DNA from: Bacilli bacterium
GTDB taxonomy: Bacteria; Bacillota_I; Bacilli_A; ML615J-28; CAG-313
Length of the DNA: 35,011 nucleotides
Direction of reading: 5' to 3'
Assembly: GCA_045653225.1 (NCBI GenBank)
Contig: JAZOLP010000183.1
Span: forward strand, 1 to 35,011
This document shows, piece after piece, positions 2,205 through 26,608 of this stretch (its first letter is position 1; each line of letters begins with the position of its first letter). The notes under the pieces are model-generated. The model had not been told where the DNA came from. It saw only the letters and a list, made by a program, of their open reading frames with translations, and searched no databases. A program made the translations under genes and the position numbers.

Positions 2205-3952
2205 TGTTTAAACTTTTACGTTATTTGAAAAAATATTGGTGGGCTGCATTACTTGCTCCAATATTTATGATAGTTGAAGTTTGCATGGATATGATGCTTA
2301 CGGGTCAAATGCAACAAATGGTTGATTTTGGTATTCCATCAAAAGATTTAGATAAGATTATCTCTATAGGTCTTGTAATGATTGCTATTGTATTCATTGG
2401 TGTTGTTGGTGGTATTTTAAGTGGTGTATTCGCAAATATTGCTAGCTGTAAATTTGCCAATGATTTAAGACAAGATGTATTTAATAAAATTATGCATTTA
2501 TCTTATGATCAAACAGATGATTTTTCTACAGGATCATTAGTAACTAGAGTTACTAATGATATAACTCAAATGCAAAACTTTGTTGCACAAATGATTAGAA
2601 TGTTTGTTAGATCTTTTGGGATGTTTGTATTAGGAATTATTTTTACATTAACAATTAATGTTAAGTTTGCTATTGTTTTAGCAATTGCTCTTCCACTTGA
2701 AATTATTGTTATGTTATTCTTTATGAAAAAAGCATTCCCAACATTCTCTATTATTCAAACTAAATTAGATAAAGTTAACACTGTTGTTCATGAAAATGTA
2801 TCAGGAGCAAGAGTTGTTAAAGCTTTCTCAAAAGAAGATTATGAAGATGAAAGATTTAAACGTGTTAATGGTGATTTATCAGATACTTTATTATATGTAA
2901 ATAAATTGTTATCATTATTAATGCCTTTATTTATGATTATCGTTTATTTAGCTCAAGTTGCTATTTATTCAATAGGTGGTAAATCTATTTTAGGTGGATT
3001 TGAAAATGGTAATGAACCAGAAATTTTATTAGGTCAAACTTCTCAAGCAATTACATATATTGTTATGATTTGTTTTGCTTTGATGCAATTTGGTATGATC
3101 TTTGCTAACGTTGCTCGTGCCCAAGCTTCAGCAAAACGAATTAATGAAGTTTTAGATTGTGAATTAGAAATTGTTGATGGCAATCTTGATTTAAATACTT
3201 TAACTGAAGTAGGTACTGTAGAATTTAAAAATGTTTCTTTCAGATATCCTAATGCAAATGGTAATGTTATTGAAAATATTAATTTTAAAGTTAATAAAGG
3301 TGAAACTATTGCTATTGTAGGTGCAACAGGTAGTGGTAAAACAACACTAGTTAATTTAATTACTAGATTCTATGATGTAACTATTGGTGAAGTTCTTGTT
3401 GACGGTGTAAATGTTAAAGAGTATCGCCAAGTTGATTTAAGAAATAAAATTGCTATTGCTCTTCAAAAATCAGAATTATTTGCTGGTACTATTGCTGAAA
3501 ATATTTCATGGGGTAATCCAGATGCAACAATTGATGAAATAAAGCTTGCTGCTGATATTGCTCAAGCAAGTGAATTTATTTTAAGCAAAGAATTAGGGTT
3601 TGATGAATATGTTGAAGAAAAAGGTACATCATTATCAGGTGGTCAAAAACAAAGATTATCAATTGCTCGTGCAATAGTAAAACAACCAGAAATATTAATT
3701 TTTGATGATGCTTCAAGTGCACTAGATTTAGTAACAGAAGCTAATTTATATAAAGCTATGAGAAAACATATTAATGATACAACTAGAATTGTTGTAGCAC
3801 AACGTGTTGCAACAGCTAAAAATGCTGATAAGATTATCGTTTTAGATGGTGGTTATATTGTTGATTTTGATACACATGAAAACTTACTTAAGAATTGTGC
3901 AATTTATCAAGATATTTATAATTCACAATTAAAGAGAGAAGGTGACGAATAA
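2204..3952 (+). CDS. heterodimeric type IV ABC exporter, subunit with degenerate Walker B and switch (TM287/EfrC-like)
   Basis: TMD+NBD; GATGSGKT, LSGGQKQR, Walker B IFDD (D replaces the catalytic E), switch VAQR (Q replaces H). Confidence 0.92.
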   Translation: MFKLLRYLKKYWWAALLAPIFMIVEVCMDMMLTGQMQQMVDFGIPSKDLDKIISIGLVMIAIVFIGVVGGILSGVFANIASCKFANDLRQDVFNKIMHLSYDQTDDFSTGSLVTRVTNDITQMQNFVAQMIRMFVRSFGMFVLGIIFTLTINVKFAIVLAIALPLEIIVMLFFMKKAFPTFSIIQTKLDKVNTVVHENVSGARVVKAFSKEDYEDERFKRVNGDLSDTLLYVNKLLSLLMPLFMIIVYLAQVAIYSIGGKSILGGFENGNEPEILLGQTSQAITYIVMICFALMQFGMIFANVARAQASAKRINEVLDCELEIVDGNLDLNTLTEVGTVEFKNVSFRYPNANGNVIENINFKVNKGETIAIVGATGSGKTTLVNLITRFYDVTIGEVLVDGVNVKEYRQVDLRNKIAIALQKSELFAGTIAENISWGNPDATIDEIKLAADIAQASEFILSKELGFDEYVEEKGTSLSGGQKQRLSIARAIVKQPEILIFDDASSALDLVTEANLYKAMRKHINDTTRIVVAQRVATAKNADKIIVLDGGYIVDFDTHENLLKNCAIYQDIYNSQLKREGDE

Positions 3953-15442: not shown

Positions 15443-18400
15443 ATGTCATATAAAGAAAATATTATTTTAACTGCCATTGATGTTATCTCAAAAAGAGGTA
15501 ATAATTTTTCAATGGATGAACTTTCATCAATGTTAAAGATGAGTAAACGTACAGTTTATGAAAAAGTAGGAAGCAAAGAAAATCTAATAATTTTATGTCA
15601 AGAATATTTAAAAGAACAATTTGATTTATATTATGATCAAGTAACAAAAAATAAAGAAGTCTGTTTCTTAGATCGTTTTGAAATCTTAATTAATTTCTTT
15701 GGCCAAAATTGGTTTATGACACGTGAAGACCGTGCTATGCTTAATAGAAGTAGCAGTTTGATCAGTAATAAAATTGATGAAGTTAGAAATTATTGTTTAA
15801 ATAAATCATTTGATTATCTTGAACAAAATTATAACAAAGGTCTTACTTTCGCTTATAATCGAGAATTATTTAATTATTTATATTTGAGTGCTTTAATTTC
15901 GTTAAATGAAGATTGTAGAAAAGATCCTACACTAGATTTTAAAAAACAACAATCATTACTTGTAAATAGTTTAATATGTGGTATTGTATCTACTAATTCT
16001 ACTCATATGGGTGGTTCATTACTTCAAAGATTGTTAAGTAGATGTAAAATTGGTTTAATATTATTTAATATTCAAGAAAAAATAAATCCTATCTTTGTTA
16101 GTCCAGGTTATGATGAATTATTTGAAGATATGATTGAAAATGATATATTAACAGAATTTATAGAAAGTTCTAAACAACAAGAAAAATTAAAATCTAATTT
16201 TGCTTCGAGAAAAGAAGTGTCGTTTGACTATGAAATTGATAAAGATGGCAAAACTTCATATTACTCCTTAAAAGCTTTACCTATCAATTGGCAAATGTAT
16301 GATGACGTATATCTTGCTGTTGTTACTGACGTTACTGAAACTAAAAATCGTGAATTACAATTAGAAATTAGCGAAAATAAATTTAATTTAGCTTTAAAAC
16401 AAACATCCCTATATATGTGGGAATATAGTGTTGAAAATCGTTGGTTAATTTTATCAGAATCACTAAAGGATATCTATTCATTTTATGATGATTATATTAT
16501 AGATGTTGCTGGATTCTTTATTGGTAATAAAATTATTCATCCTGATTATACAAAGAAATTTGAAAAATTCTATCGTGGTATTTTAGCTGGTCAAAGAAGT
16601 GGTGAATGCAAAATTAAAATGGTTGATAAATTCGGTAATTTTAAACTATTTAAATTATCCTACAAAACTATTTTTGACTGTAATGATAATCCAATTACTG
16701 CTGTTGGTGTAGTTGTACCAGCAAATATCGGTGTTGAAAATAAGTTTGATCAAGAAGAACAAATGATTTCTTTTTTGAAAAACGAAATAGAATTTGGTTT
16801 TCAATATAATATTGAATCAGAAAAAATTGAAAAGGTATTTGGTACTAGTCCATTAGTGAATAAGTATCAAAATAATTTCTCATTTGAAGGAATTACAAAT
16901 TATTTACTTCAACATATACCAAATGAAAGTGACAAAAATGAAATTTTAAATGTTATGAATAAAAAAGTCATTTATGATTTTGTTCAAGAAAACAGATCTT
17001 ATAATTCAATTTATTTTAGAATTGCTGATGAAAGTGGAAATATTAGTTGGAAAAATTTAATATTTAGAATTATCACAAGACCTGCAGGTGGTGATGACTA
17101 TTTATTTGCATATATTCTAGAAGCTGATAAAAAGCATAAATTAGAATTAAAACTTCCAGAAAAAGTAGAATATGATATTACTACCAAACTATTCGTTAAG
17201 TCTACATTTAAACGTATGGTTAATTTTGCAATAAATGAAGAGTCAATGTCTAATGATTGTGCTTTAATTATTATTGAATGTGTTAACTTATCTACAATCA
17301 AAATGCAGTATGGGTTAAATGTTGCCGAAAAACTTTTAGTTCACTTTAGTAGAGTATTAAAATTATGTTTCTCTAATCAGTCAATTATAGGTTTACTTGA
17401 TGGTAGTAAAATTGGTATTTTCTTCCCTAAAGTTGATAATTTATATGAACTTAGAGACCGTATAAGTGAAGTAATCACATTAATTCATAACTCTTATGTA
17501 TTATCAGATAATGAAGAAAAAATTGCTAAAGTATATTATAGTATTATTGCATCTACATTGGAAAACGCAAATTATCATATTTTGTATGATAAATGTACAA
17601 AACTTCTAGATGAATTAAAACGTCAAGAAGATGAAATTATTACTTATAATGATAATATTGATTATCATATTAACTATTCAAGTCAAGAATATAATTCAAA
17701 TGATACAGTTGTTTATGAAGGTGATGGTACAGTATTAAATGAAATCATAACTTCTTTATATCAAAATATTATTTCTTTAAAAGATCCTTTTGATATAATT
17801 AATGAAACATTAAAACAACTTAACTATTATTATAGTGCTTATAAAACTAGTGTATTTGTTTTAAGTTCAGATAAACAAACTATTAAATTACATAGTGAGT
17901 TTACTATTGGTGATATTTTAAGCTTTGATAAAGTAGAGTATAAGGTTGATGAAATTCCAGGATTATCGTATTGTTCATCAAGACAACAACCAGTAATTAT
18001 TAAAACAAATTATTCTCAAGATGAATTATTATCTAATTATTATTACCATTTAAGATTAAACAATATTAATTTATTCTATGCGATGCCTTTAATTGAAAAA
18101 AATGAAACAGTTGGATTTTTAACAATTTCTAACGCAACAGACCATTTAGGTGAACTTTCATTATTTAAGATATTATCTCAAATCGTTAATAACGAAATAG
18201 TAAAAAAATCTTTAGTTGAAGATAAAAAATTAAATAATCAAGTTGATTTTGTATCAAAATTATATAACTATAATTTCTATAGAACAACTATTTCTAGACT
18301 TAAAAATAGTGCATTATCTAGTCTTGGTGTTGCGTTTATTAAGTTAAATGACTTAAGACAAATGAATATTGATCATGGTAATGAGTACAGTGATAGAATA

Positions 18401-19456
18401 ATTGATAATATCGCAGATATTTTAAGAGAAAAGTTTAGAATGGATTCTATTTTTAGAATTGACAGTGAAATATTTGTTATTTTAATACCTGATATTAATT
18501 ATGAAGCATTTATTGAACGTTTTAATGATGTTGTCAATAACATTAATAACATCGAAATTGGGCTTATAAGTAATGGTCAAACTTGGACTGATACAGATAT
18601 TGATGTTGAGAAATTAATTAATCATGCGGAAGAATTAATGATCATAAATAAAAATCAAAAGAATACTGCTGAGAAATTTGATGTTAAGAATGACAACTTA
18701 AATAATTTAAATGATGCTATAAATAGAAATTGGTTTACTTTCTTCTTACAACCAAAAGTAGATTTATCAACAGGTAAAGTTTCTTCTGCAGAATCATTAG
18801 TAAGAATGGTCCATCCAACATTAGGTGTAATTAGTCCAGCAAAGATTATTCCAATTTTAGAAAAAAATAAAATGGTTAGTTATGTCGATTTCTATATTTT
18901 AGAGCTTGTTTGTCAAACACTTAAAAAATGGAAAGAAGAAGGAAAGAAACTTATTCCAATTTCTGTTAACTATTCTCGTGTAACATTACTTGAAAATGAT
19001 ATAGTTGAAAGAACAAAGAACGTGATTACTAAGTATGACGTTGATGAATCATTGATTGAAATTGAAATAACTGAAACAATCGGAAATATGGAACAAAAAA
19101 CTATTTCTGAACTTGCTGAAAAATTTATCGCAGCAGGAATTAAACTTGCTATTGATGACTTTGGATCCAAATATTCTAGTTTGTCTACTTTATCACTTGT
19201 TCCGTTTAATGTAGTAAAAGTAGATAAATCAATTATTAATGATTTAGTTGTTAATCCTAGATCAAAAATTATTGTTGAACAAATAATTAATATTTGTAAA
19301 GGGTTAAATATGAAGTCTGTTGCAGAAGGTATTGAAACTGAACGCCAATGGGCAGAAGTTAAACGCTTAGGATTTGATTTAGGACAAGGCTATTATTTTG
19401 AAAAACCTATTCCAATCAAAGAATTTGAAGAAAAATTTTTAAAGGATGTAGAGTGA
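15443..19456 (+). CDS. TetR-family domain fused to PAS-like domains, degenerate GGDEF, GAF, degenerate GGDEF and EAL c-di-GMP phosphodiesterase
   Basis: N-terminal FSMDELSSMLKMSKRTVYEKVGSKENL TetR HTH; MWEY...IIHPDY PAS; GGDEF-fold segments with LDGSK and IDSEI; EAL residues QP, AESLVR, SVN, EITE, DDFG..YSS, KVD, EGIET, QGY. Confidence 0.85.
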   Translation: MSYKENIILTAIDVISKRGNNFSMDELSSMLKMSKRTVYEKVGSKENLIILCQEYLKEQFDLYYDQVTKNKEVCFLDRFEILINFFGQNWFMTREDRAMLNRSSSLISNKIDEVRNYCLNKSFDYLEQNYNKGLTFAYNRELFNYLYLSALISLNEDCRKDPTLDFKKQQSLLVNSLICGIVSTNSTHMGGSLLQRLLSRCKIGLILFNIQEKINPIFVSPGYDELFEDMIENDILTEFIESSKQQEKLKSNFASRKEVSFDYEIDKDGKTSYYSLKALPINWQMYDDVYLAVVTDVTETKNRELQLEISENKFNLALKQTSLYMWEYSVENRWLILSESLKDIYSFYDDYIIDVAGFFIGNKIIHPDYTKKFEKFYRGILAGQRSGECKIKMVDKFGNFKLFKLSYKTIFDCNDNPITAVGVVVPANIGVENKFDQEEQMISFLKNEIEFGFQYNIESEKIEKVFGTSPLVNKYQNNFSFEGITNYLLQHIPNESDKNEILNVMNKKVIYDFVQENRSYNSIYFRIADESGNISWKNLIFRIITRPAGGDDYLFAYILEADKKHKLELKLPEKVEYDITTKLFVKSTFKRMVNFAINEESMSNDCALIIIECVNLSTIKMQYGLNVAEKLLVHFSRVLKLCFSNQSIIGLLDGSKIGIFFPKVDNLYELRDRISEVITLIHNSYVLSDNEEKIAKVYYSIIASTLENANYHILYDKCTKLLDELKRQEDEIITYNDNIDYHINYSSQEYNSNDTVVYEGDGTVLNEIITSLYQNIISLKDPFDIINETLKQLNYYYSAYKTSVFVLSSDKQTIKLHSEFTIGDILSFDKVEYKVDEIPGLSYCSSRQQPVIIKTNYSQDELLSNYYYHLRLNNINLFYAMPLIEKNETVGFLTISNATDHLGELSLFKILSQIVNNEIVKKSLVEDKKLNNQVDFVSKLYNYNFYRTTISRLKNSALSSLGVAFIKLNDLRQMNIDHGNEYSDRIIDNIADILREKFRMDSIFRIDSEIFVILIPDINYEAFIERFNDVVNNINNIEIGLISNGQTWTDTDIDVEKLINHAEELMIINKNQKNTAEKFDVKNDNLNNLNDAINRNWFTFFLQPKVDLSTGKVSSAESLVRMVHPTLGVISPAKIIPILEKNKMVSYVDFYILELVCQTLKKWKEEGKKLIPISVNYSRVTLLENDIVERTKNVITKYDVDESLIEIEITETIGNMEQKTISELAEKFIAAGIKLAIDDFGSKYSSLSTLSLVPFNVVKVDKSIINDLVVNPRSKIIVEQIINICKGLNMKSVAEGIETERQWAEVKRLGFDLGQGYYFEKPIPIKEFEEKFLKDVE

Positions 19457-19460
19457 TATT

Positions 19461-21161
19461 ATGGTAAATAAACAAAAAAACTTTTATAGTATTGCTGTTA
19501 TATTCTGTGTTATTGTTTTTGCTGCAATCATTTCTATAATTAGTCTAATAACTAATCCTAATAGTGGTCATGCGACACAGATTGCAACTCCTTTTGAGTT
19601 AAACGAGTCATGGTATGTTGTTGGTGACGATTCAGAAGTTGAATGGGATATGTTGCCTTATTATAATGAATATCGTTTTGAAGAATTCAAACTATATAAC
19701 TATTTACCAAATGATTTAAAAGATAGAAGTTGTATTTATTTAAAAACAAATTATCAATCTATTAAAATTGAAATAGAAGGATATGGAGTTATTTATGATG
19801 AAAAATCTTTTGATAATTTAGTGTTTGGATCTAATGTTAATGTTGTAACTCATTTCATCGAATTAGAACAAGAATATGCTGGTAAGAAAATCATTATTTC
19901 TTCTGATGAAGTTCAAGAATATTTATATCCAACGCTAGAACAGGTTCTTATTGCTGAAAAAGGCGATTTATTGCTAAACTTATTAATGGGAGCTTCAATT
20001 GATTTATTCTTTATTGGTGTAATCATTATTATTGGTTGTTTATTAATTATTTTAGCAATCTTATTAATTAAATATAAATCAGTTAAATATGTTGCGGATT
20101 GTTTCTGTTTAACAATATTTACGTTTATTTTCGCGATATGGATTTTCTCTAATGTTAGTGAATTATATATATTAGTTAATGATAACGCATTCTTCTTCCT
20201 GATATATATTCTCGCACTTTATATGTTGTTGCTACCTATCTATATTTTATTAAGAAATAAATGTACACATTTTATTAAATTATTCGATAGTTTATTTACA
20301 ACAATGGTATGTTTATTATTAAATAATTTAATACTTGCTGGAACTGGTGTGTGGTCACTAACAGAATCAATGATATTACTTCATATTGTAATTGCGATTT
20401 CTTATTCTTTGTGTGTGTTTGCTGTATTTGTTGAATATTTTAAACATAAAAATAGAGATATTTTAGCATATTTAATTTCATCGGTTGTTTTCTTTGTGTG
20501 TATAACATTTACTATTATTGCCTATTACTATCCAAATTTAAAATTAAATATCATTGATTATGATTTCTTCTTAAAATTTGCATTTGTAATATTTGTAATA
20601 TTAAATGGTATTGCATACATTAGACAAGTAATTATTTCTAGTTTAAAAACTAGTGAGTCTGCAATTTATCGTAAACTAGCATTTACTGATTTAATGACTG
20701 GCTTAGATAATAGAAGCTCATTTGATCATGATTTAAACACATTAGCACAAGAAATGTTTGATTATATAAGTATAATTGAATTTGATATTGATGGATTAAA
20801 ATCTGTAAATGATAATTATGGACACTCTGTTGGTGATGAGTTAATCAAAGAAGTTGCTTCTTCAATTAAAGAGATTTTTGGTAAATATAGTAAATGTTAT
20901 AGAATTGGTGGAGATGAATTTATAGTAATCACATTAAATGAAAATTCTACGTTTATTCAAACTTTGATTGATAAATTTAAAGAAGAGATTTCTAATAAGA
21001 TATTATCAAGTGGTTCAAAAATAAATGTATCGATTGGTTCAGCATTTGATGATGGTATTTTAAGTAAATATACTAATCTAACTAATCTGATTAATGTTAC
21101 AGATAGATTGATGTATGAAAATAAAAACATTAATAAAATGAATAATAATTTTGTAGAGTAA
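19461..21161 (+). CDS. membrane-bound diguanylate cyclase (extracellular domain, multi-TM region, GGDEF)
   Basis: TDLMTGLDNR, DIDGLKSVNDNYGHSVGD, RIGGDEF, SIG, ending MYENK; no RxxD I-site. Confidence 0.9.
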   Translation: MVNKQKNFYSIAVIFCVIVFAAIISIISLITNPNSGHATQIATPFELNESWYVVGDDSEVEWDMLPYYNEYRFEEFKLYNYLPNDLKDRSCIYLKTNYQSIKIEIEGYGVIYDEKSFDNLVFGSNVNVVTHFIELEQEYAGKKIIISSDEVQEYLYPTLEQVLIAEKGDLLLNLLMGASIDLFFIGVIIIIGCLLIILAILLIKYKSVKYVADCFCLTIFTFIFAIWIFSNVSELYILVNDNAFFFLIYILALYMLLLPIYILLRNKCTHFIKLFDSLFTTMVCLLLNNLILAGTGVWSLTESMILLHIVIAISYSLCVFAVFVEYFKHKNRDILAYLISSVVFFVCITFTIIAYYYPNLKLNIIDYDFFLKFAFVIFVILNGIAYIRQVIISSLKTSESAIYRKLAFTDLMTGLDNRSSFDHDLNTLAQEMFDYISIIEFDIDGLKSVNDNYGHSVGDELIKEVASSIKEIFGKYSKCYRIGGDEFIVITLNENSTFIQTLIDKFKEEISNKILSSGSKINVSIGSAFDDGILSKYTNLTNLINVTDRLMYENKNINKMNNNFVE

Positions 21162-21184: not shown

Positions 21185-21264
21185 ATTAAAATTTTGTTAA
21201 TTTTATTGCATATTAAGTGCTAAAAACTTTTTTTTATTATATAATATTAGTACAAAAATATTTA

Positions 21265-21561
21265 AAAACATTGAAAAGAAGAGTAAATAATTAATTTTTT
21301 TATAGAGAGTCTTTGTTGGTGGAAATAAGATATTAAATGATTATTGAACATGGTCTTGGAGTTGGATTGTCGATATTTAGGCTTTCTCGGGTGCTCCCGT
21401 TATAGAGATAGAGTTTACAACTTAAAGTAGAATATTACCACTATTCTTATAACTTTAGGGATTGAACTTGATAAGGGTTAAATCGTGAGGTTTAACTGAA
21501 GAAAGGTGGTAACACGAAGTATATTCGTCCTTTTATTTTAAATAATAAAAGGACTTTTTTT
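21265..21561 (+). promoter_or_regulatory. T-box riboswitch, methionine specifier
   Basis: AGTA, AGAGAG and GGTGGAA stem I motifs; GAAC-ATG specifier (21350-21352); CCCGTTA; T-box AAAGGTGGTAACACG (21502-21516); terminator GTCCTTTTATT/AATAAAAGGAC plus T-run; lies upstream of metNIQ. Confidence 0.92.
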
Positions 21562-21584: not shown

Positions 21585-22562
21585 TTGAGTGATTATCTAT
21601 TAGAAATAAAAAATTTATCAAAGAGTTTCGGAGAACATCGAGTTTTATCTAATATCAACTTAAAAATCAATAAAAAAGATGTTTATGGAATTTTAGGCTT
21701 ATCAGGTGCAGGTAAATCTACTTTAATAAGATGTATAAATGGTCTAGAAAAATTTGATGATGGAGAAATTTTATTTAAAGATAAAATAGTAACATTTGAT
21801 CGTGAATATCGTAAAAATGTTGCGATGATTTTCCAACAATTTAATTTATTAGATCAACGAACAGTTTTAAAAAATGTAGAACTTGCTGGAGAATTATTTA
21901 AAGACTGTAATAGACATGAAAAAGCTATAAAATATTTAAATCTTGTAGGATTGAGTGATAAACTTAATAGTTATCCGTCACAATTATCAGGTGGTCAAAA
22001 ACAAAGAGTTGCAATTGCAAGAGCATTAATGTCAGAACCTGAAATTTTATTATGCGATGAAGCTACTTCAGCACTTGACCCTGATACAACAAATCAAGTA
22101 CTTGCGTTATTAAAAGAACTAAATGAAAAATTAGGACTTACAATTATTATGATTTCACATCAAATGAATGTAATTGAAAAAATTTGTAATAAGGTAGCAA
22201 TTATTGATAATGCGAAAATTGTTGAAAGTGGTGAAACACAAGAGATTTTCTTATATCCAAAAACTGAGATTAGTAAAAAAATTATTTATTCTGGTCATAT
22301 TAATACAAAGAGTGATGATTCTAAATTACTTAAAGTAATATTTAATGGTGAACTTGATATGCCTTTAATTGCAAATATAGTTCAAGATTGTAATATTGTT
22401 TTATCTGTAATTTATGCGGATTCAAAAGTTGTAAATGGGCATGTTTTTGGTCAATTAATATTCAAAATGCCTGCTGATATTAATGATGTTTTAAAACTTC
22501 GTAAATATCTAGAATTAAAGAATATTAACTATAAGGAGGTGGATGCAAGTGAGTTTTTCTGA
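21585..22562 (+). CDS. metN: methionine ABC transporter ATP-binding subunit (TTG start)
   Basis: GLSGAGKS, LSGGQKQR, LCDEATSALDP, C-terminal NIL-like domain; Met T-box upstream. Confidence 0.92.
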   Translation: MSDYLLEIKNLSKSFGEHRVLSNINLKINKKDVYGILGLSGAGKSTLIRCINGLEKFDDGEILFKDKIVTFDREYRKNVAMIFQQFNLLDQRTVLKNVELAGELFKDCNRHEKAIKYLNLVGLSDKLNSYPSQLSGGQKQRVAIARALMSEPEILLCDEATSALDPDTTNQVLALLKELNEKLGLTIIMISHQMNVIEKICNKVAIIDNAKIVESGETQEIFLYPKTEISKKIIYSGHINTKSDDSKLLKVIFNGELDMPLIANIVQDCNIVLSVIYADSKVVNGHVFGQLIFKMPADINDVLKLRKYLELKNINYKEVDASEFF

Positions 22563-23217
22563 GATTTTTAAAATGGTTTTAGAAACTCTAGGAATGACAT
22601 TTATTTCATGTACACTTGCATATATATTTGGCCTTCCAATGGGTATTTTATTAAATGTAACTTCGAAAAAAGGAATTATGCCATGCAAATGGCTCAACAC
22701 AATCTTAAGTTTAATTATTAATATTTTAAGATCAATTCCATGTTTAATTATTGTTGTATTATTAATGCAAACAGTTCGTGATATTTTTGGTAGAGCCGTT
22801 GGAGAATGGTATACAATTATTATTCCATTATTTGCAACTTCATTTGGATTTGTTTCTAGAATGGTAGAACAATCTTTATCAGAAGTTGATAATGGTAAAA
22901 TTGAAGCTATCGTTTCACTTGGTGCTACAAAATTCCAAATTATTACAAAAGTGCTTTTACCAGAAACTAAGGCTTCATTAATTTCTGGTCTTGCTGTAAC
23001 TTTAGTTTCTATACTAGGTTACACATCATTCGCATATAATATTGGTGCGGGTGGATTAATTGCTGGTATATGGTCATTCTATTCAAAGAATACCGGTAAT
23101 TATTTAAGTGAACCATTCTTCTGGATTATGATTATTATTGTTATTTTAATTGTTCAAGGTATCCAAGAATTAGGTTTGTTAATTTCGAAAAAATTAGATA
23201 AAAGGAGAATATTATAA
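22549..23217 (+). CDS. metI: methionine ABC transporter permease (probable GTG start)
   Basis: ETL.M, NILRSIP, EA..SLGA, LLPE, GAGGL motifs; AAGGAGGT is 8 nt before GTG 22549. Confidence 0.9.
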   Translation: MSFSEIFKMVLETLGMTFISCTLAYIFGLPMGILLNVTSKKGIMPCKWLNTILSLIINILRSIPCLIIVVLLMQTVRDIFGRAVGEWYTIIIPLFATSFGFVSRMVEQSLSEVDNGKIEAIVSLGATKFQIITKVLLPETKASLISGLAVTLVSILGYTSFAYNIGAGGLIAGIWSFYSKNTGNYLSEPFFWIMIIIVILIVQGIQELGLLISKKLDKRRIL

Positions 23218-24050
23218 TGAAAAAAAGAATATTAAGTTTAATTGCAATATTAATTTTATGTTTAACTGTAGGTCTTACAGGTTGTAAAAAGGATGAAAAA
23301 ACAATTTATGTTTGTGCAAGTGAATTACCACATGCTGATATTTTGGAAAATGCTGTTGCTCCAATTTTAAAAGAACAAGGATATACTTTAAAAGTTACAG
23401 TTATTGACTGGACAATTCAAAATAATGCTGTTGCAAATAAAGATTATGATGCAAACTATTTCCAACATGTTCCTTACCTAGAATTATATGAAGGTGATAT
23501 TAAATTATTTGCTACATGTAAAGTTCACTATGAACCTCTTGGAATTTATAGAGGAAAAGCTACTGGCGAATTAACTGAAGGTAAAACATTTGCTATTTGT
23601 AACGATGAATCAAACGCTATTAGAGCTTTAGAATTATTAAAAGATAAAGGTGTTATTGAAACTCTTCCTGTTGATGCTGAAGGTAAATTAACAATCACTG
23701 GTTCTAATTGGACTGCTGAAAATGGTGTAACTGTTACTTTAGTTGCTGAAGAATTATTAGCTGCTTCAATGCCTGATTTCGATTTCGTATGTCTTCCTTG
23801 TAATACAGCTTTAACTGGTAATGTTGATGCTTCATTAAAAGTTGCTAAAGAAGATAATGCTGAATTAGTTGCTGCTAAAGCAAATATAATTGCAGCAAGA
23901 GTAGAAGATTATAAAAATGATGCTGAATATAAGGCAAAAATTGATGCTTTAACTGAAGCTGTTCTTTCAAAAGCTGTATCAGATTACGTAAATCAAAAAT
24001 ATAGTGGTGCTATTACTTGTGATAGTAGCTCACAAATTGATTTAAGATAA
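23217..24050 (+). CDS. metQ: methionine ABC transporter substrate-binding lipoprotein (NlpA family)
   Basis: LTGC lipobox, PHADIL, DANYFQHVPYL, VHYEPLGIY, ND.SN..RAL. Confidence 0.92.
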   Translation: MKKRILSLIAILILCLTVGLTGCKKDEKTIYVCASELPHADILENAVAPILKEQGYTLKVTVIDWTIQNNAVANKDYDANYFQHVPYLELYEGDIKLFATCKVHYEPLGIYRGKATGELTEGKTFAICNDESNAIRALELLKDKGVIETLPVDAEGKLTITGSNWTAENGVTVTLVAEELLAASMPDFDFVCLPCNTALTGNVDASLKVAKEDNAELVAAKANIIAARVEDYKNDAEYKAKIDALTEAVLSKAVSDYVNQKYSGAITCDSSSQIDLR

Positions 24051-24071
24051 TTAAGAAAGAAATCGTTTTCA

Positions 24072-24123
24072 TTTGCATATTAATTTACACATATTGCAAA
24101 TTAATATATACTATTGGTATAAA
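24072..24123 (+). promoter_or_regulatory. promoter overlapped by tandem ARG-box-like operators
   Basis: TGCATATTAATTTA (24074-24087) and TGCAAATTAATATA (24095-24108) are 21 bp apart; TTTACA-17 bp-TATACT (24084-24112); alternative TGGTATAAA (24115-24123). Confidence 0.6.
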
Positions 24124-24124
24124 T

Positions 24125-24286
24125 AAACATTTGGAAAAGATAGGATTTATTCCTTGATTATAATTATGCGATTAGCTTTTAATTTTCACATAATTATAAG
24201 CTAGTTGCAAAGTAAGGCTTATAGTTTAAGCTTGAAAGTATGTATGCTGCACCTAGAAAAAGGAATATCTTTTTCTAGGTGTTTTT
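24125..24286 (+). ncRNA. unassigned structured 5' leader / candidate attenuator
   Basis: several hairpins, an AGTA/GAA internal loop, and a 13-bp terminator stem plus T5 ending 3 nt before the RBS. Confidence 0.5.
24250..24286 (+). terminator. terminator-like hairpin directly upstream of the RBS of the amino-acid ABC operon
   Basis: CACCTAGAAAAAG/CTTTTTCTAGGTG followed by TTTTT; AGGAGG at 24290. Confidence 0.75.
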
Positions 24287-24304
24287 AATAGGAGGTTTAA
24301 AATT

Positions 24305-25153
24305 ATGAAAAAATTATTTGTTTGTCTTGTTTGTGTGATCGCTGCTTTATGTGTTGCTTCATGTAATACAACTAGCAAAGATGTAGTTAAAGTTATCGAT
24401 ATTAAATTAACAGATGAAGAGTACGCATTTGCTGTTAAAAAAGGAAACACTGAATTATTAAATGATTTTAATGCATTCTTAGCTGAAATTCAAGCTAATG
24501 GAAAATTCGATGAAGTTGTTGCAAAATACTTCGAAAACAAAGGAACTAAAGTAGGCGTTGAAATTTCTATCGATAGCGTTGCTAATACTGAAGAAAAATT
24601 TGTAGTTGCTACTAACTGTCCTTTTGAACCATTCGAATACATTGGTGATGATGGTAAAGCTTATGGTATTGACCTTGAAATTGCTGCATTATATGCTGAA
24701 GCTAAAGGTTTAGAATTAGTAGTTAAAAATATTGCTTTTGATGCAATTTTAAATGATGTTAATGCAGGTTACTCTGATATGGGTATGGCAGGTATGACAG
24801 TTAATGAAGATCGTTTAGTATCAAATGATTTCACAACTGCTTACTATCAAGCTTCTCAAAAAATCATTGTAGCAGCTGATAATACAGATTTCGATAACTG
24901 TAAAACTGCTGAAGATGTTGAAAATGTAATTAAAGCTTTATCAGGTAAAAAGATTGGTTACCAAACTGGTACAACTGGAAACTGGTATGTAGCTGGTGAT
25001 GCTGACTGGGGATTTGATGGATTTGCTAATGTTGAAGCTAAAGGTTATAGTACAGCTCAACTTGCTATTCAAGATTTAATTAATGGTCAAATCTATGCAG
25101 TAGTAGTAGATGAAGCACCTGGTGCTGCAATGGTTAAAGCATTCAATAAATAA
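24305..25153 (+). CDS. polar amino-acid ABC transporter substrate-binding lipoprotein (family 3), circularly permuted; substrate possibly arginine
   Basis: VASC lipobox; TNCPFEPFEY, GIDLEIA, FDAIL, AGMTVNEDR, QTGTTG, VVVDE; the normally C-terminal EEYAFAVKKGN...KYF block comes first. Confidence 0.88.
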   Translation: MKKLFVCLVCVIAALCVASCNTTSKDVVKVIDIKLTDEEYAFAVKKGNTELLNDFNAFLAEIQANGKFDEVVAKYFENKGTKVGVEISIDSVANTEEKFVVATNCPFEPFEYIGDDGKAYGIDLEIAALYAEAKGLELVVKNIAFDAILNDVNAGYSDMGMAGMTVNEDRLVSNDFTTAYYQASQKIIVAADNTDFDNCKTAEDVENVIKALSGKKIGYQTGTTGNWYVAGDADWGFDGFANVEAKGYSTAQLAIQDLINGQIYAVVVDEAPGAAMVKAFNK

Positions 25154-25857
25154 TGGGTAAAAAGTTTCAAGTTTTTCTTGACGCTTTACAAAAAGAATAT
25201 TTCCAAAAATTACTTTTAACAGGTTTTAGAAACACAATTCTAATTGCTGTTTTAGGTTTATTAATTGGTATAATTTTAGGTACGATAATAGCGATGGTAA
25301 AAGTTGCTCCTAAATATAAATGGTACATGAAAGTTTTAAATGCTATCTGTAACGTTTATGTTGAGTTCTTTAGAGGAACTCCAATGACTGTGCAACTATT
25401 ACTAGCGTACTATGTTATCGTACCTTTAATTGGGCTTAAAGGTGTTGAAGCGTTAAATGTCGGTATAATTGTATTTGGATTAAATAGTGCTGCTTATGTA
25501 TCTGAGATTATGAGAGGCGGAATTAACTCAGTAGATTCTGGTCAGTTTACAGCTGGAAGAGCACTTGGTTTAAGTTATCCAATAACAATGATTAAAATAG
25601 TAATTCCGCAAGCAATTAAAAATATTTTACCTACACTTGGTAATGAATTTATTACTTTAATTAAAGAAACATCAGTTGTAAGTTTTATCACTGTAGCTGA
25701 TTTATATAATGCATTCTATAGTATTAGTTTAAGTACTCATGATACAATTATTGCGTATCTTGCAATGGCATTAATTTATCTTGGTCTAGTATTACTAATT
25801 ACTTTATTAATTAAAGTATTAGAAAGGAGTTTAGGCAAGAGTGATCGACGTAATTAA
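25153..25857 (+). CDS. polar amino-acid ABC transporter permease
   Basis: [37 protein letters not shown]. Confidence 0.92.
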
Positions 25858-26608
25858 TTTAAAGAAAAGTTTCGGTGATTTACATGTTTTGCGTGGTGTT
25901 AATTTATCAGTAAAAGATGGAGAAAAAGTTTGTGTGATTGGTCCTTCAGGAAGTGGTAAATCAACTTTACTGTATTGTTTAAACTGCTTAACAGATCCAA
26001 CAAGTGGTGAAATCATTTATGAAGGTAAAGATATTACTAATTTCAAAGTAAATATCAATGAAGTAAGAGAATCTATTGGAATGGTTTTCCAACAATTTAA
26101 TTTATTTAAACACAAAACTGTTTTAGAAAATATTATATTAGCTCCTGTTCATATTCAAACAAGATACTTAAGAAAAGGTATTAAAGACTTTGGTAATTCT
26201 AAAAAAGATATAATTGAAAATAATAAAAAATATGCGATGGAGTTATTAGAGAAAATTGGTCTTGCTGATAAAGCAAATGCATATCCTTCTACTTTATCTG
26301 GTGGACAACAACAAAGAATTGCAATTGTAAGAACATTAGCTATGAAACCTAAACTAATTTTATTTGATGAACCAACAAGTGCATTAGACCCAGAAATGGT
26401 AAAAGAAGTTTTAGATTTAATAAAAGAAATTGCAAAAGGTAATATTACAATGATTATTGTAACTCATGAAATGGGCTTTGCAAGAGAAGTTGCAGATAGA
26501 GTTATTTTCATGGATGAAGGTGTTGTACTTGAAGAAGGTACTCCAGAACAAATTTTTGATAACCCACAAAAACCAAGAACAAAAGAATTTTTAAGTAAAG
26601 TTTTATAA
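25841..26608 (+). CDS. polar amino-acid ABC transporter ATP-binding protein (GlnQ/ArtR-like, GTG start)
   Basis: [44 protein letters not shown]. Confidence 0.93.

What the first reader, a model, noticed from the sequence alone, without database searches (positions are those of the whole stretch)
24119..24295. Unassigned structured leader with mutually exclusive terminator and long-range pairing: candidate new attenuator or riboswitch
Seen: (a) a 13-bp terminator plus T5 ending 3 nt before the RBS, with no strong promoter downstream of it; (b) the 5' segment AAACATTTGGAAAAGATA (24125-24142) can form 18 bp with the terminator's 3' strand (24266-24284) with one bulge, and all three deviations from perfect complementarity are G-U pairs, which favours RNA structure over a DNA inverted repeat; (c) an 11-bp hairpin TTATAATTATG/CATAATTATAA (24158-24199); (d) a second arm AGGCTTA/TAAGCTT flanked by AGTA and GAA, the loop-E/S-turn signature found in T-box stem II and lysine riboswitch P2. 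There is no GGTGGNACC T-box, and I could not match it by eye to lysine, glycine, SAM, TPP or c-di-GMP aptamers. Inference: a novel cis-regulator of amino-acid uptake, a decayed known element, or a discrete sRNA.
Basis: partly seen in the sequence, partly recalled or inferred. Interest (0 to 1): 0.75.

Follow-up and report, generated by a model that had tools for sequence, protein, structure and literature searches.

The report
Conserved attenuator leader of amino-acid transporter
A structured RNA leader in front of an amino-acid uptake operon of an uncultured gut bacterium can fold either into a transcription stop signal or into a competing long-range pairing, and it matches no catalogued RNA family, so it is a candidate genetic switch whose trigger is unknown.

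Summary
The region 24119-24295 is the 5' leader of an SBP-permease-ATPase amino-acid ABC operon. It ends in a strong intrinsic terminator 3 nt before the RBS. It matches no Rfam 15 family, whereas the metNIQ leader in the same window scores as a T-box. The leader recurs upstream of orthologous transporters in 4 of 80 fetched loci (L001, L006, L017, L038). A diverged tandem form occurs in L002. Upstream genes differ among these loci. That pairing beats chance only in the window and its closest relative, L001. In 5 of 5 sequences the loop and 3' arm of a small hairpin, P1 (24142-24154), pair over 8-10 bp with the terminator apex (24260-24267), and the loop letters covary. P1 sits on an invariant asymmetric internal loop (AAGAU/UGA), and its stem covaries in L002. 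A second pair of mutually exclusive helices (A and B) is sequence-invariant. I read the element as a terminator/antiterminator attenuator whose effector is unknown. It may belong to the published orphan 'trpB motif'; I could not compare it because the supplements were closed.

The parts
24058..24071 (.). Near-palindrome AGAAATCGTTTTCA, 12 nt upstream of the -35; a possible operator (it resembles a cre site; that consensus is recalled)
   Evidence: Aligned and conserved in 5 of 5 sequences. A similar box lies upstream of the promoter in L002. A strict cre regex hits only the window and L038 among 81 upstream regions.
24084..24112 (+). Promoter-like TTTACA-17-TATACT; the inferred transcription start is about 24119-24121
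   Evidence: 10 of 12 matches. The -10 aligns with TATAAT in L001, L006, L017 and L038. The start site is inferred, not mapped.
24125..24142 (+).
   Evidence: -16.1 kcal/mol, 0 of 300 shuffles; also in L001; not in L006, L017 or L038. It stacks on AT1 in the AT1-forced fold.
24136..24158 (+). P1 module: closing pair A24136:U24158, invariant internal loop AAGAU (24137-24141) / UGA (24155-24157), stem AGGA/UCCU (24142-24145 with 24151-24154), loop UUUAU
   Evidence: 7 instances (6 distinct rows), 100% of stem cells paired, 3 of 4 stem pairs with changes on both sides. The closing pair is C-G in 4 rows, A-U in 1 and unpaired in 1.
24148..24155 (+). AT1 5' strand (UAUUCCUU: P1 loop plus 3' arm), which pairs with 24260-24267
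24160..24197 (+). Helix A: ATAATTATG (24160-24168) with CATAATTAT (24189-24197); mutually exclusive with helix B
   Evidence: Invariant in 5 of 5 sequences. It appears together with AT2 in the AT1-forced fold of L001.
24167..24209 (+). Helix B: TGCGATTAGCT (24167-24177) with AGCTAGTTGCA (24199-24209), including 2 G-U pairs
   Evidence: In the minimum-energy fold of 5 of 5 sequences. In one search, 11 pairs have 0 broken cells and 4 one-sided changes, all keeping a pair on the + strand.
24215..24233 (+). P3 variable hairpin AGGCTTA/TAAGCTT
   Evidence: a hairpin of different sequence at this place in L001, L017 and L038; weak in L006.
24200..24256 (+). AT2 (tentative): CUAG-U-UGCA (24200-24209) with UGCA-C-CUAG (24248-24256), enclosing P3
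   Evidence: window -8.7, L001 -8.2, L006 -4.7, L017 -6.9, L038 -11.2 kcal/mol. No shuffle control was run.
24249..24286 (+). Intrinsic terminator (stem 24249-24282, apex AAGGAAUA 24260-24267, U-run to 24286)
   Evidence: -19.8 kcal/mol. Present in 5 of 5 sequences; the stem sequence differs in L038.
24290..24307 (+). RBS AGGAGG (24290-24295) and the start codon of the SBP gene (24305)
24305..26608 (+). Regulated operon: SBP_bac_3 binding protein, permease and ATPase of a polar amino-acid ABC importer
   Evidence: Pfam, NCBIfam, PDB sequence search.

Best explanation
The region is a cis-acting transcription attenuator in the 5' leader of a polar amino-acid ABC importer operon. The leader is transcribed from its own promoter (about 24084-24112) or by read-through from metQ. 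It can adopt two exclusive folds. In the stop fold, P1 (24142-24154), helix B, P3 and the terminator (24249-24282) all form, and RNA polymerase terminates 3 nt before the RBS. In the read-through fold, the loop and 3' arm of P1 (24148-24155) pair with the terminator apex (24260-24267; AT1). In the window and L001 the 5' segment 24125-24142 adds a stacked helix with the terminator 3' arm. Helix A together with a pairing of the helix B 3' arm with the lower 5' arm of the terminator (AT2) may complete a three-way junction. Inferred, not shown: an effector that reports sufficiency of the transported amino acid binds the P1 module, whose 8-nt internal loop AAGAU/UGA is invariant. Binding holds P1 closed, which blocks AT1 and lets the terminator form, so the element is an OFF switch. 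Whether the effector is a metabolite (a riboswitch) or an RNA-binding protein is open; I lean slightly towards a metabolite.
For: Terminator directly before the RBS, with equivalents in 5 of 5 leader-bearing sequences.

Distribution. By eye, most other orthologous loci of the 80 carry a -10-like box close to the RBS and no such terminator. CM R1 found the leader in the window plus 4 of 80 loci at E <= 1.2e-13, and a weak match in L002 at E = 0.1. In every case it lies 150-270 nt upstream of the SBP start. The upstream genes differ: metQ, an unknown protein, a 1229-aa ORF, or MazG.

Conservation. The core has 87% mean column identity, although the SBPs are only 54-63% identical in L006, L017 and L038.

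P1 covaries: 100% of stem cells pair, 3 of 4 pairs change on both sides, and 1 of 500 shuffles reaches the observed score. With the closing pair included, 0 of 500 do.

AT1 forms 8-10 bp at -8.5 to -10.1 kcal/mol in 5 of 5 sequences. The fraction of 500 shuffles that do as well is 0.006-0.038. The cognate partner is the best, or ties for best, in every row of the 5x5 cross-matrix. The P1 region is the top-ranked partner of the terminator apex anywhere in the leader in 5 of 5 sequences.

Nascent transcripts. Transcripts ending before the terminator 3' arm fold with AT1 in 4 of 5 sequences, and in the window when it is cut at 24267 or 24270.

Strand. All 4 substitutions in helix B keep a pair only as + strand RNA.

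No Rfam family matches.
Against: Only 6 loci carry the element, about 4-5 independent lineages, and no transcription start site or termination data exist. Helices A and B and the UCCUU:AAGGA part of AT1 never vary, so they give no covariation evidence. The covarying AT1 positions are P1-loop against terminator-loop letters, so they also fit a 3-4 bp loop-loop kiss with both hairpins intact. P1 and the terminator apex resemble each other, which could reflect duplication or a shared binder rather than pairing. In L002 the best partner of each terminator 5' half is a segment upstream of P1, not the P1 3' half, so the switch logic there may differ. In the full-length RNA the terminator fold is favoured by 4.4-11.5 kcal/mol. 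The effector and the direction of the switch are inference only.
Confidence: 0.6

Rival explanations
1. ON-type riboswitch. The aptamer is the three-way junction closed by AT1, with helix A or B and P3 as its arms. The invariant helix A/B region forms the pocket. Ligand binding stabilises AT1 and gives read-through, and P1 is only the default competitor.
For: AT1 encloses helix B and P3 as a three-way junction in the nascent-transcript folds. The helix A/B region is the most conserved stretch. The junction linkers are short when helix A and AT2 are used (coordinates).
Against: L002 unit a has the P1 module and a terminator but no helix A/B. The invariant unpaired letters lie at the base of P1. 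An uptake system induced by its own substrate is the less usual logic (general knowledge).
Confidence: 0.15
2. One reading: the 5' segment 24125-24142 pairs with the terminator 3' strand and acts as the antiterminator.
For:: -16.1 and -14.9 kcal/mol in the window and L001, with 0 of 300 shuffles each. The helix appears in window transcripts cut at 24274-24278.
Against: It is not distinguishable from shuffles in L006, L017 and L038. Its partner strand is transcribed last, so it cannot form before the local hairpin unless the 5' arm is already held, which is what AT1 would do.
Confidence: 0.1
3. The conserved core acts as DNA, not RNA. It would be an operator or promoter: two ATAATTAT palindromes 31 bp apart, a TATAAT-like box at 24159-24164, and a CodY-box-like AATTTTCACATAATT (by eye; the consensus is recalled).
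For: Helices A and B are invariant without covariation. The palindromes and the -10-like hexamer are seen directly in the sequence.
Against: Substitutions in helix B keep G-U-type pairs on the + strand only. P1 and AT1 covary. The promoter scan lists no site there. The CodY-like stretch is not conserved in L006, L017 or L038.
Confidence: 0.05
4. The region is a separate small RNA gene (promoter to terminator, about 165 nt), or simply the terminator of metNIQ, with no role in transporter control.
For: A promoter-like site and a strong terminator bracket the region. No terminator separates metQ from it.
Against: The element follows the transporter, not metQ, across loci. The terminator abuts the RBS with no promoter after it. 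The conserved competitor of the terminator has no purpose in a plain terminator.
Confidence: 0.05
5. Leader-peptide (ribosome-mediated) attenuation through a short upstream ORF, for example the one starting at ATG 24166.
For: The ATG in ATAATTATGCGA is conserved.
Against: By eye, no Shine-Dalgarno sequence precedes it. Indels of 1-5 columns, not all multiples of three, shift the frame between homologues, and the peptides would be 4 to 17 residues long without a run of regulatory codons (read).
Confidence: 0.03

Closest known systems
trpB motif (orphan riboswitch candidate SRC-39-1; Narunsky et al. 2024, PMC11109978; passages read)
   Same: It lies in the 5' UTR. It occurs in Firmicutes. It is most often upstream of an uncharacterised ABC transporter resembling amino-acid transporters. 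[quoted passage not shown]
   Different: I could not see its consensus sequence: the figures are not held and the supplementary alignments were closed. The window form has about 95 nt (helix A/B and P3) between P1 and the terminator, which the text does not mention. No Rfam model matched, and I do not know whether Rfam 15 holds this motif.
T-box leaders (RF00230)
   Same: They are terminator/antiterminator leaders of amino-acid genes in Firmicutes, and one controls metNIQ 2.7 kb upstream in this window.
   Different: RF00230 gives no match in 24000-24350 even at E <= 10. There is no T-box sequence, no long Stem I and no specifier loop.
Guanidine-IV (mepA) riboswitch (mechanism recalled; only named)
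   Same: A small hairpin whose loop is complementary to the apex of the downstream terminator-region hairpin, so that a long-range loop pairing decides termination.
   Different: The sequence, gene context and ligand are unrelated. Here the complementarity runs on into the P1 3' arm (8-10 bp) and so needs P1 to open.
Protein-mediated attenuators (TRAP, PyrR, HutP, BglG/LicT RAT, ANTAR; signatures recalled)
   Same: A factor bound to a leader hairpin chooses between the terminator and the antiterminator.
   Different: By eye there are no regularly spaced GAG/UAG triplets, no dual hexaloop hairpins and no RAT-like sequence. The best PyrR model score was only 24.8 bits, elsewhere in the window. 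No RNA-binding regulator is encoded in the window.
Kink-turn (definition quoted in PMC9723947)
   Same: GA on the 5' strand and GA on the 3' strand could form tandem sheared G-A pairs next to the P1 stem, followed by U-U, with unpaired A's on the 5' strand.
   Different: Only 2 unpaired letters lie between the covarying closing pair and the G-A pairs, where a kink-turn has a 3-nt bulge. No canonical C helix extends beyond one pair.

Membership tests
Intrinsic (Rho-independent) terminator | G+C-rich hairpin followed directly by a U-run | tested here: met
   15 pairs, 5 of them G-C, then TTTTT.: -19.8 kcal/mol. Present in 5 of 5 homologues.
T-box leader (RF00230) | Match to the covariance model (Stem I, specifier, T-box sequence in the antiterminator bulge) | tested here: not met
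   No RF00230 match in 24000-24350 at E <= 10. The same model scores 92.6 bits on 21262-21535.
Any Rfam 15 family (lysine, glycine, SAM, TPP, c-di-GMP, ykkC, PyrR and others) | Score at or near the family's gathering threshold | tested here: not met
   Zero hits at gathering over the whole window. The best match in the leader is 20.2 bits against a threshold of 76.1. No family recurs across L002, L017 and L038.
trpB motif (PMC11109978) | 5' UTR position, Firmicutes, amino-acid-type ABC transporter downstream | tested here: met
   compared with the description read.
trpB motif (PMC11109978) | P1 hairpin plus terminator hairpin, with the antiterminator in the right shoulder of P1 | tested here: met
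   The P1 3' half pairs with the terminator apex in 5 of 5 sequences.
trpB motif (PMC11109978) | Match to the motif's consensus sequence or alignment | not testable with these tools
Kink-turn | Tandem sheared G-A pairs in the NC helix | tested here: inconclusive
   The invariant GA/GA letters are in the right places. Geometry cannot be tested here.
Kink-turn | 3-nt bulge and a canonical C helix with a C-G pair next to it | tested here: not met
   There is a 2-nt bulge. One covarying closing pair is present (C-G in 4 rows, A-U in 1, unpaired in 1 of 6 distinct rows), and no further pairs extend it.
Riboswitch (metabolite-binding) | Direct, selective ligand binding by the RNA | not testable with these tools
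   This needs in-line probing, ITC or transcription assays.

The most novel reading that the evidence does not exclude
This is a previously uncatalogued riboswitch class of uncultured low-GC gut Bacilli. It senses an amino acid or a close derivative directly through an 8-nt invariant asymmetric internal loop under a variable hairpin. It controls an amino-acid importer through an antiterminator that spans about 110 nt and pairs with the terminator apex. The invariant helix A/B switch would provide a second input or a kinetic timer.
Probability: 0.25. Interest if true: 0.8.

Novelty: new variant of a known kind. Interest (0 to 1): 0.55.

Why it matters
Amino-acid uptake genes in Firmicutes are mostly assigned to T-boxes, the lysine and SAM riboswitches, or protein repressors. 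A conserved leader that fits none of the catalogued families is a concrete orphan. It has a defined sensor candidate (the P1 module) and a defined, testable switch (AT1 against P1 and the terminator). If it binds a metabolite, it would add a sensor for an amino acid that may have no known riboswitch. If it binds a protein, it would reveal a new attenuation regulator in an uncultured gut lineage. If it proves to be the trpB motif, the covarying P1-loop/terminator-apex pairing and the expanded variant would sharpen the model of that orphan.

Tried and rejected
- Rfam. The gathering scan of the whole window found nothing. Permissive scans of the leader and of L002, L017 and L038 found only inconsistent low scores.
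- blastn of the leader against plasmids and phages found no match.
- CM R1, searched over the window plus 80 loci (646,120 bases), found no further copies upstream of other genes. The P1 pattern gave 37 matches, of which only the 7 leader instances have a stem of 4 or more pairs. In the window alone the bare pattern is at chance level: 11 matches against 7.3 expected.
- AT1-type pairing in L002: the P1 3' half is not among the 6 best partners of either terminator.
- Leader peptide, TRAP/HutP triplet repeats, ANTAR hairpins and a CodY box were examined by eye only, against recalled consensus sequences, and rejected as conserved features.
- A full kink-turn: no C helix was found.
- A strict cre regex matched 2 of 81 upstream regions, so calling the palindrome a cre site is only a resemblance.
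- Literature. Four full-text searches found no description of this element other than the possibly related trpB motif. Full-text search cannot find a sequence motif.

Full report
Context. The window is about 27% G+C and comes from an uncultured member of the Bacilli. The closest relatives of its binding protein are named only as Bacilli or Erysipelotrichaceae MAG proteins. Upstream of the finding lie metN (21585-22562), metI (22543-23217) and metQ/NlpA (23217-24050). Downstream lie an SBP_bac_3 binding protein (24305-25153), a permease (25153-25857) and an ABC ATPase (25841-26608). The nearest solved relatives of the binding protein are glutamine/asparagine, arginine and lysine binders, so the substrate is not defined.

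Checking the observation. All four features are present at the stated coordinates. The terminator was found independently by the scan: 24249-24282 with 15 pairs and a T-run. It ends 3 nt before AGGAGG. The pairing of the 5' segment with the terminator 3' arm is real and beats all 300 shuffles in the window (-16.1 kcal/mol) and in L001 (-14.9). It is not distinguishable from shuffles in L006, L017 and L038. The 11-bp hairpin exists, and its inner 9 bp are invariant in all five sequences. It competes with an 11-12 bp helix B that the minimum-energy fold prefers in 5 of 5 sequences. The AGGCTTA/TAAGCTT arm is a variable hairpin (P3), but its AGTA and GAA flanks are not conserved. The intergenic region folds at z = -4.83 against shuffles.

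Known families. Rfam 15 gives nothing at gathering over the whole window. The permissive scan of the leader gives only unrelated low scores. The same is true for L002, L017 and L038, and no family recurs among them. As a positive control, the metNIQ leader (21262-21535) scores 92.6 bits for the T-box model, 0.4 bits under its threshold, at E = 4.3e-21. T-boxes are therefore detectable in this genome, and the finding is not one.

Relatives. I scanned the species-representative genomes with a 20-protein alignment of the binding protein, and 80 loci were kept. blastn of the leader hits 4 of the 80: L001 at 82% over 248 nt, and L006, L017 and L038 at 73-79% over the 5' 150 nt. A covariance model of the core (R1) finds the same four plus the window at E <= 1.2e-13, a weak match in L002 (E = 0.1), and nothing upstream of other genes in 646,120 bases. 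The other orthologous loci mostly show a -10-like box close to the RBS and no terminator (by eye). The gene upstream of the leader differs: metQ in the window and L001, an unassigned protein in L006 and L017, a 1229-aa ORF in L038, and MazG in L002. The transporter downstream is constant and is fused as SBP-permease in L006, L017 and L038. The element therefore belongs to the transporter and is not merely the metNIQ terminator. The core has 87% mean column identity, while the binding proteins of L006, L017 and L038 are 54-63% identical to the window's.

Anatomy. A near-palindrome (24058-24071) and a promoter-like TTTACA-17-TATACT (24084-24112) precede the leader. The -10 aligns with TATAAT in the four relatives. 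The leader then contains five elements.

1. The P1 module (24136-24158). A 4-bp hairpin, AGGA/UCCU, sits on an invariant asymmetric internal loop (AAGAU on the 5' side, UGA on the 3' side) that is closed by one pair.
2. Two mutually exclusive helices with invariant sequence. Helix A is 24160-24168 with 24189-24197. Helix B is 24167-24177 with 24199-24209.
3. The variable hairpin P3 (24215-24233).
4. The terminator (24249-24286).
5. The RBS.

L002 carries two tandem units, at about 616-690 and 701-840. Each has the same invariant flanks, ACAAGAUA and UUGAG(U/C)AU, around a hairpin of different sequence (AAGC/GCUU, and AAAUAGAU/AUCUGUUU), and each is followed by its own terminator. Across the 7 instances (6 distinct rows) all stem cells pair and 3 of 4 stem pairs change on both sides. 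The closing pair is C-G in 4 rows, A-U in 1 and unpaired in 1. With the closing pair included, no shuffle of 500 reaches the observed covariation score. In 646 kb the pattern AAGATA-N8-24-TTGA[G/T] occurs 37 times, and only these 7 have a stem of 4 or more pairs.

The conserved competitor of the terminator. In all five full-length leaders the P1 loop plus 3' arm is complementary to the upper 5' side and loop of the terminator.

| Sequence | P1 loop + 3' arm | Terminator apex |
|---|---|---|
| window | UAUUCCUU | AAGGAAUA |
| L001 | UAUUCCUU | GAGGAAUA |
| L006 | UUAAUCCUU | GAGGGUUAA |
| L017 | GAUAUCCUU | AAGGAUGUU |
| L038 | AUAUUCCUUG | UAAGGAAUGU |

These are 8-10 bp at -8.5 to -10.1 kcal/mol, and the fraction of 500 shuffles that do as well is 0.006-0.038. 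The P1 loop letters differ between lineages and the terminator apex letters follow them. In the 5x5 cross-matrix the cognate partner is the best, or ties for best, in every row. The P1 region is the best partner of the apex anywhere in the leader in 5 of 5 sequences. In L038 the AAGGAAU stretch lies in the terminator loop, where the terminator stem does not need it. This argues that it is kept for pairing with P1.

Transcripts cut before the terminator 3' arm fold with this helix (AT1) in L001, L006, L017 and L038, and in the window when cut at 24267 or 24270. In the full-length RNA the terminator fold wins by 4.4-11.5 kcal/mol. In those two sequences the energy gap to the terminator fold is smallest, 4.8 and 4.4 kcal/mol. 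The 3' arm of helix B can also pair with the lower 5' arm of the terminator (AT2). This gives 7-10 bp at -4.7 to -11.2 kcal/mol and is longest in L038, where both partners have changed. I ran no control for AT2, so it is tentative.

Strand and RNA nature. Helix B has two G-U pairs. The four substitutions seen in its arms (G-U to A-U, G-U to G-C, G-C to G-U, U-A to U-G) all keep a pair on the + strand and would give A-C mismatches on the other strand. Indels in the helix A loop are not multiples of three, and the conserved ATG at 24166 has no Shine-Dalgarno sequence (by eye). I therefore reject a leader peptide.

Mechanism. Shown by computation: two exclusive sets of pairings, with the terminator, P1, P3 and the AT1 loop positions supported by compensatory or lineage-matched changes. 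Inferred: the choice between P1 and AT1 is set by an effector. I place the sensor at the P1 module for two reasons. It is the only part shared with L002, and its unpaired letters are invariant while its stem and loop vary freely. Holding P1 closed would block AT1 and allow termination, giving an OFF switch suited to an importer. The GA/GA letters could form tandem sheared pairs as in a kink-turn (definition read in PMC9723947). However, the bulge has 2 letters rather than 3, and no C helix extends beyond one pair, so I do not file it as a kink-turn. The reverse logic remains possible, with a ligand-stabilised three-way junction closed by AT1. So does a loop-loop kiss that leaves both hairpins intact. 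The L002 units appear to use a strand upstream of P1 against their terminators, so the expression platforms differ between lineages, as is common for riboswitches (general knowledge).

What is known. Narunsky et al. 2024 (PMC11109978; passages read) describe an orphan 'trpB motif'. It has more than 900 representatives in Firmicutes and Fusobacteria and lies mostly upstream of an uncharacterised amino-acid-type ABC transporter. It has a P1 hairpin, a terminator hairpin and an antiterminator in the right shoulder of P1. The authors leave open whether it is a riboswitch, a protein-binding element or a classic attenuator. That description fits this element. The consensus is only in a figure and in supplementary files that I could not open, and no other held paper mentions the motif. 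Identity therefore stays untested. Searches found nothing else relevant.

Verdict. This is a real, conserved, structured attenuator leader of an amino-acid ABC importer that is absent from Rfam 15. The element is narrowly sampled (6 loci), its effector is unknown, and it may coincide with a published orphan. Interest is moderate.

Noticed in passing
window 21262-21535 (+): The metNIQ leader is a T-box. It scores 92.6 bits against a gathering score of 93 (E = 4.3e-21), so the default Rfam scan of the window missed it. Its terminator is at 21527-21554, just before metN.
   Followed up: partly
window 24058-24071; L002 517-530; L003 about 3432-3445; L021 about 3822-3835: A near-palindrome (AGAAATCGTTTTCA, TGAATACGTTTACA) lies upstream of the promoter of the transporter operon, including in loci that lack the structured leader. 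It resembles a CcpA cre site (consensus recalled). A strict cre regex matched only the window and L038 among 81 upstream regions.
   Followed up: partly
window 24305-25153; L006 4001-5545; L017 4001-5548; L038 4001-5557: Residues 30-77 of the binding protein match the C-terminal part of solved SBPs, ahead of the main SBP_bac_3 domain. In three relatives the binding protein is fused to the permease.
   Followed up: partly
window 16072-16095 (-): AAGATAGGATTTATT, 15 nt identical to the 5' half of the P1 module, lies on the minus strand inside the GGDEF/EAL ORF 15443-19456. It is probably chance; the terminal TTGA also matches but no hairpin forms.
   Followed up: no
window 15443-21161: Two large c-di-GMP turnover proteins lie in tandem directly upstream of the T-box: a 1337-aa PAS/GGDEF/EAL protein and a 566-aa GGDEF protein.
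   Followed up: no
L002 586-846: Two P1 modules lie in tandem, each with its own terminator, ahead of one transporter operon. In each unit a strand upstream of P1, not the P1 3' arm, is the best partner of the terminator 5' half.
   Followed up: partly
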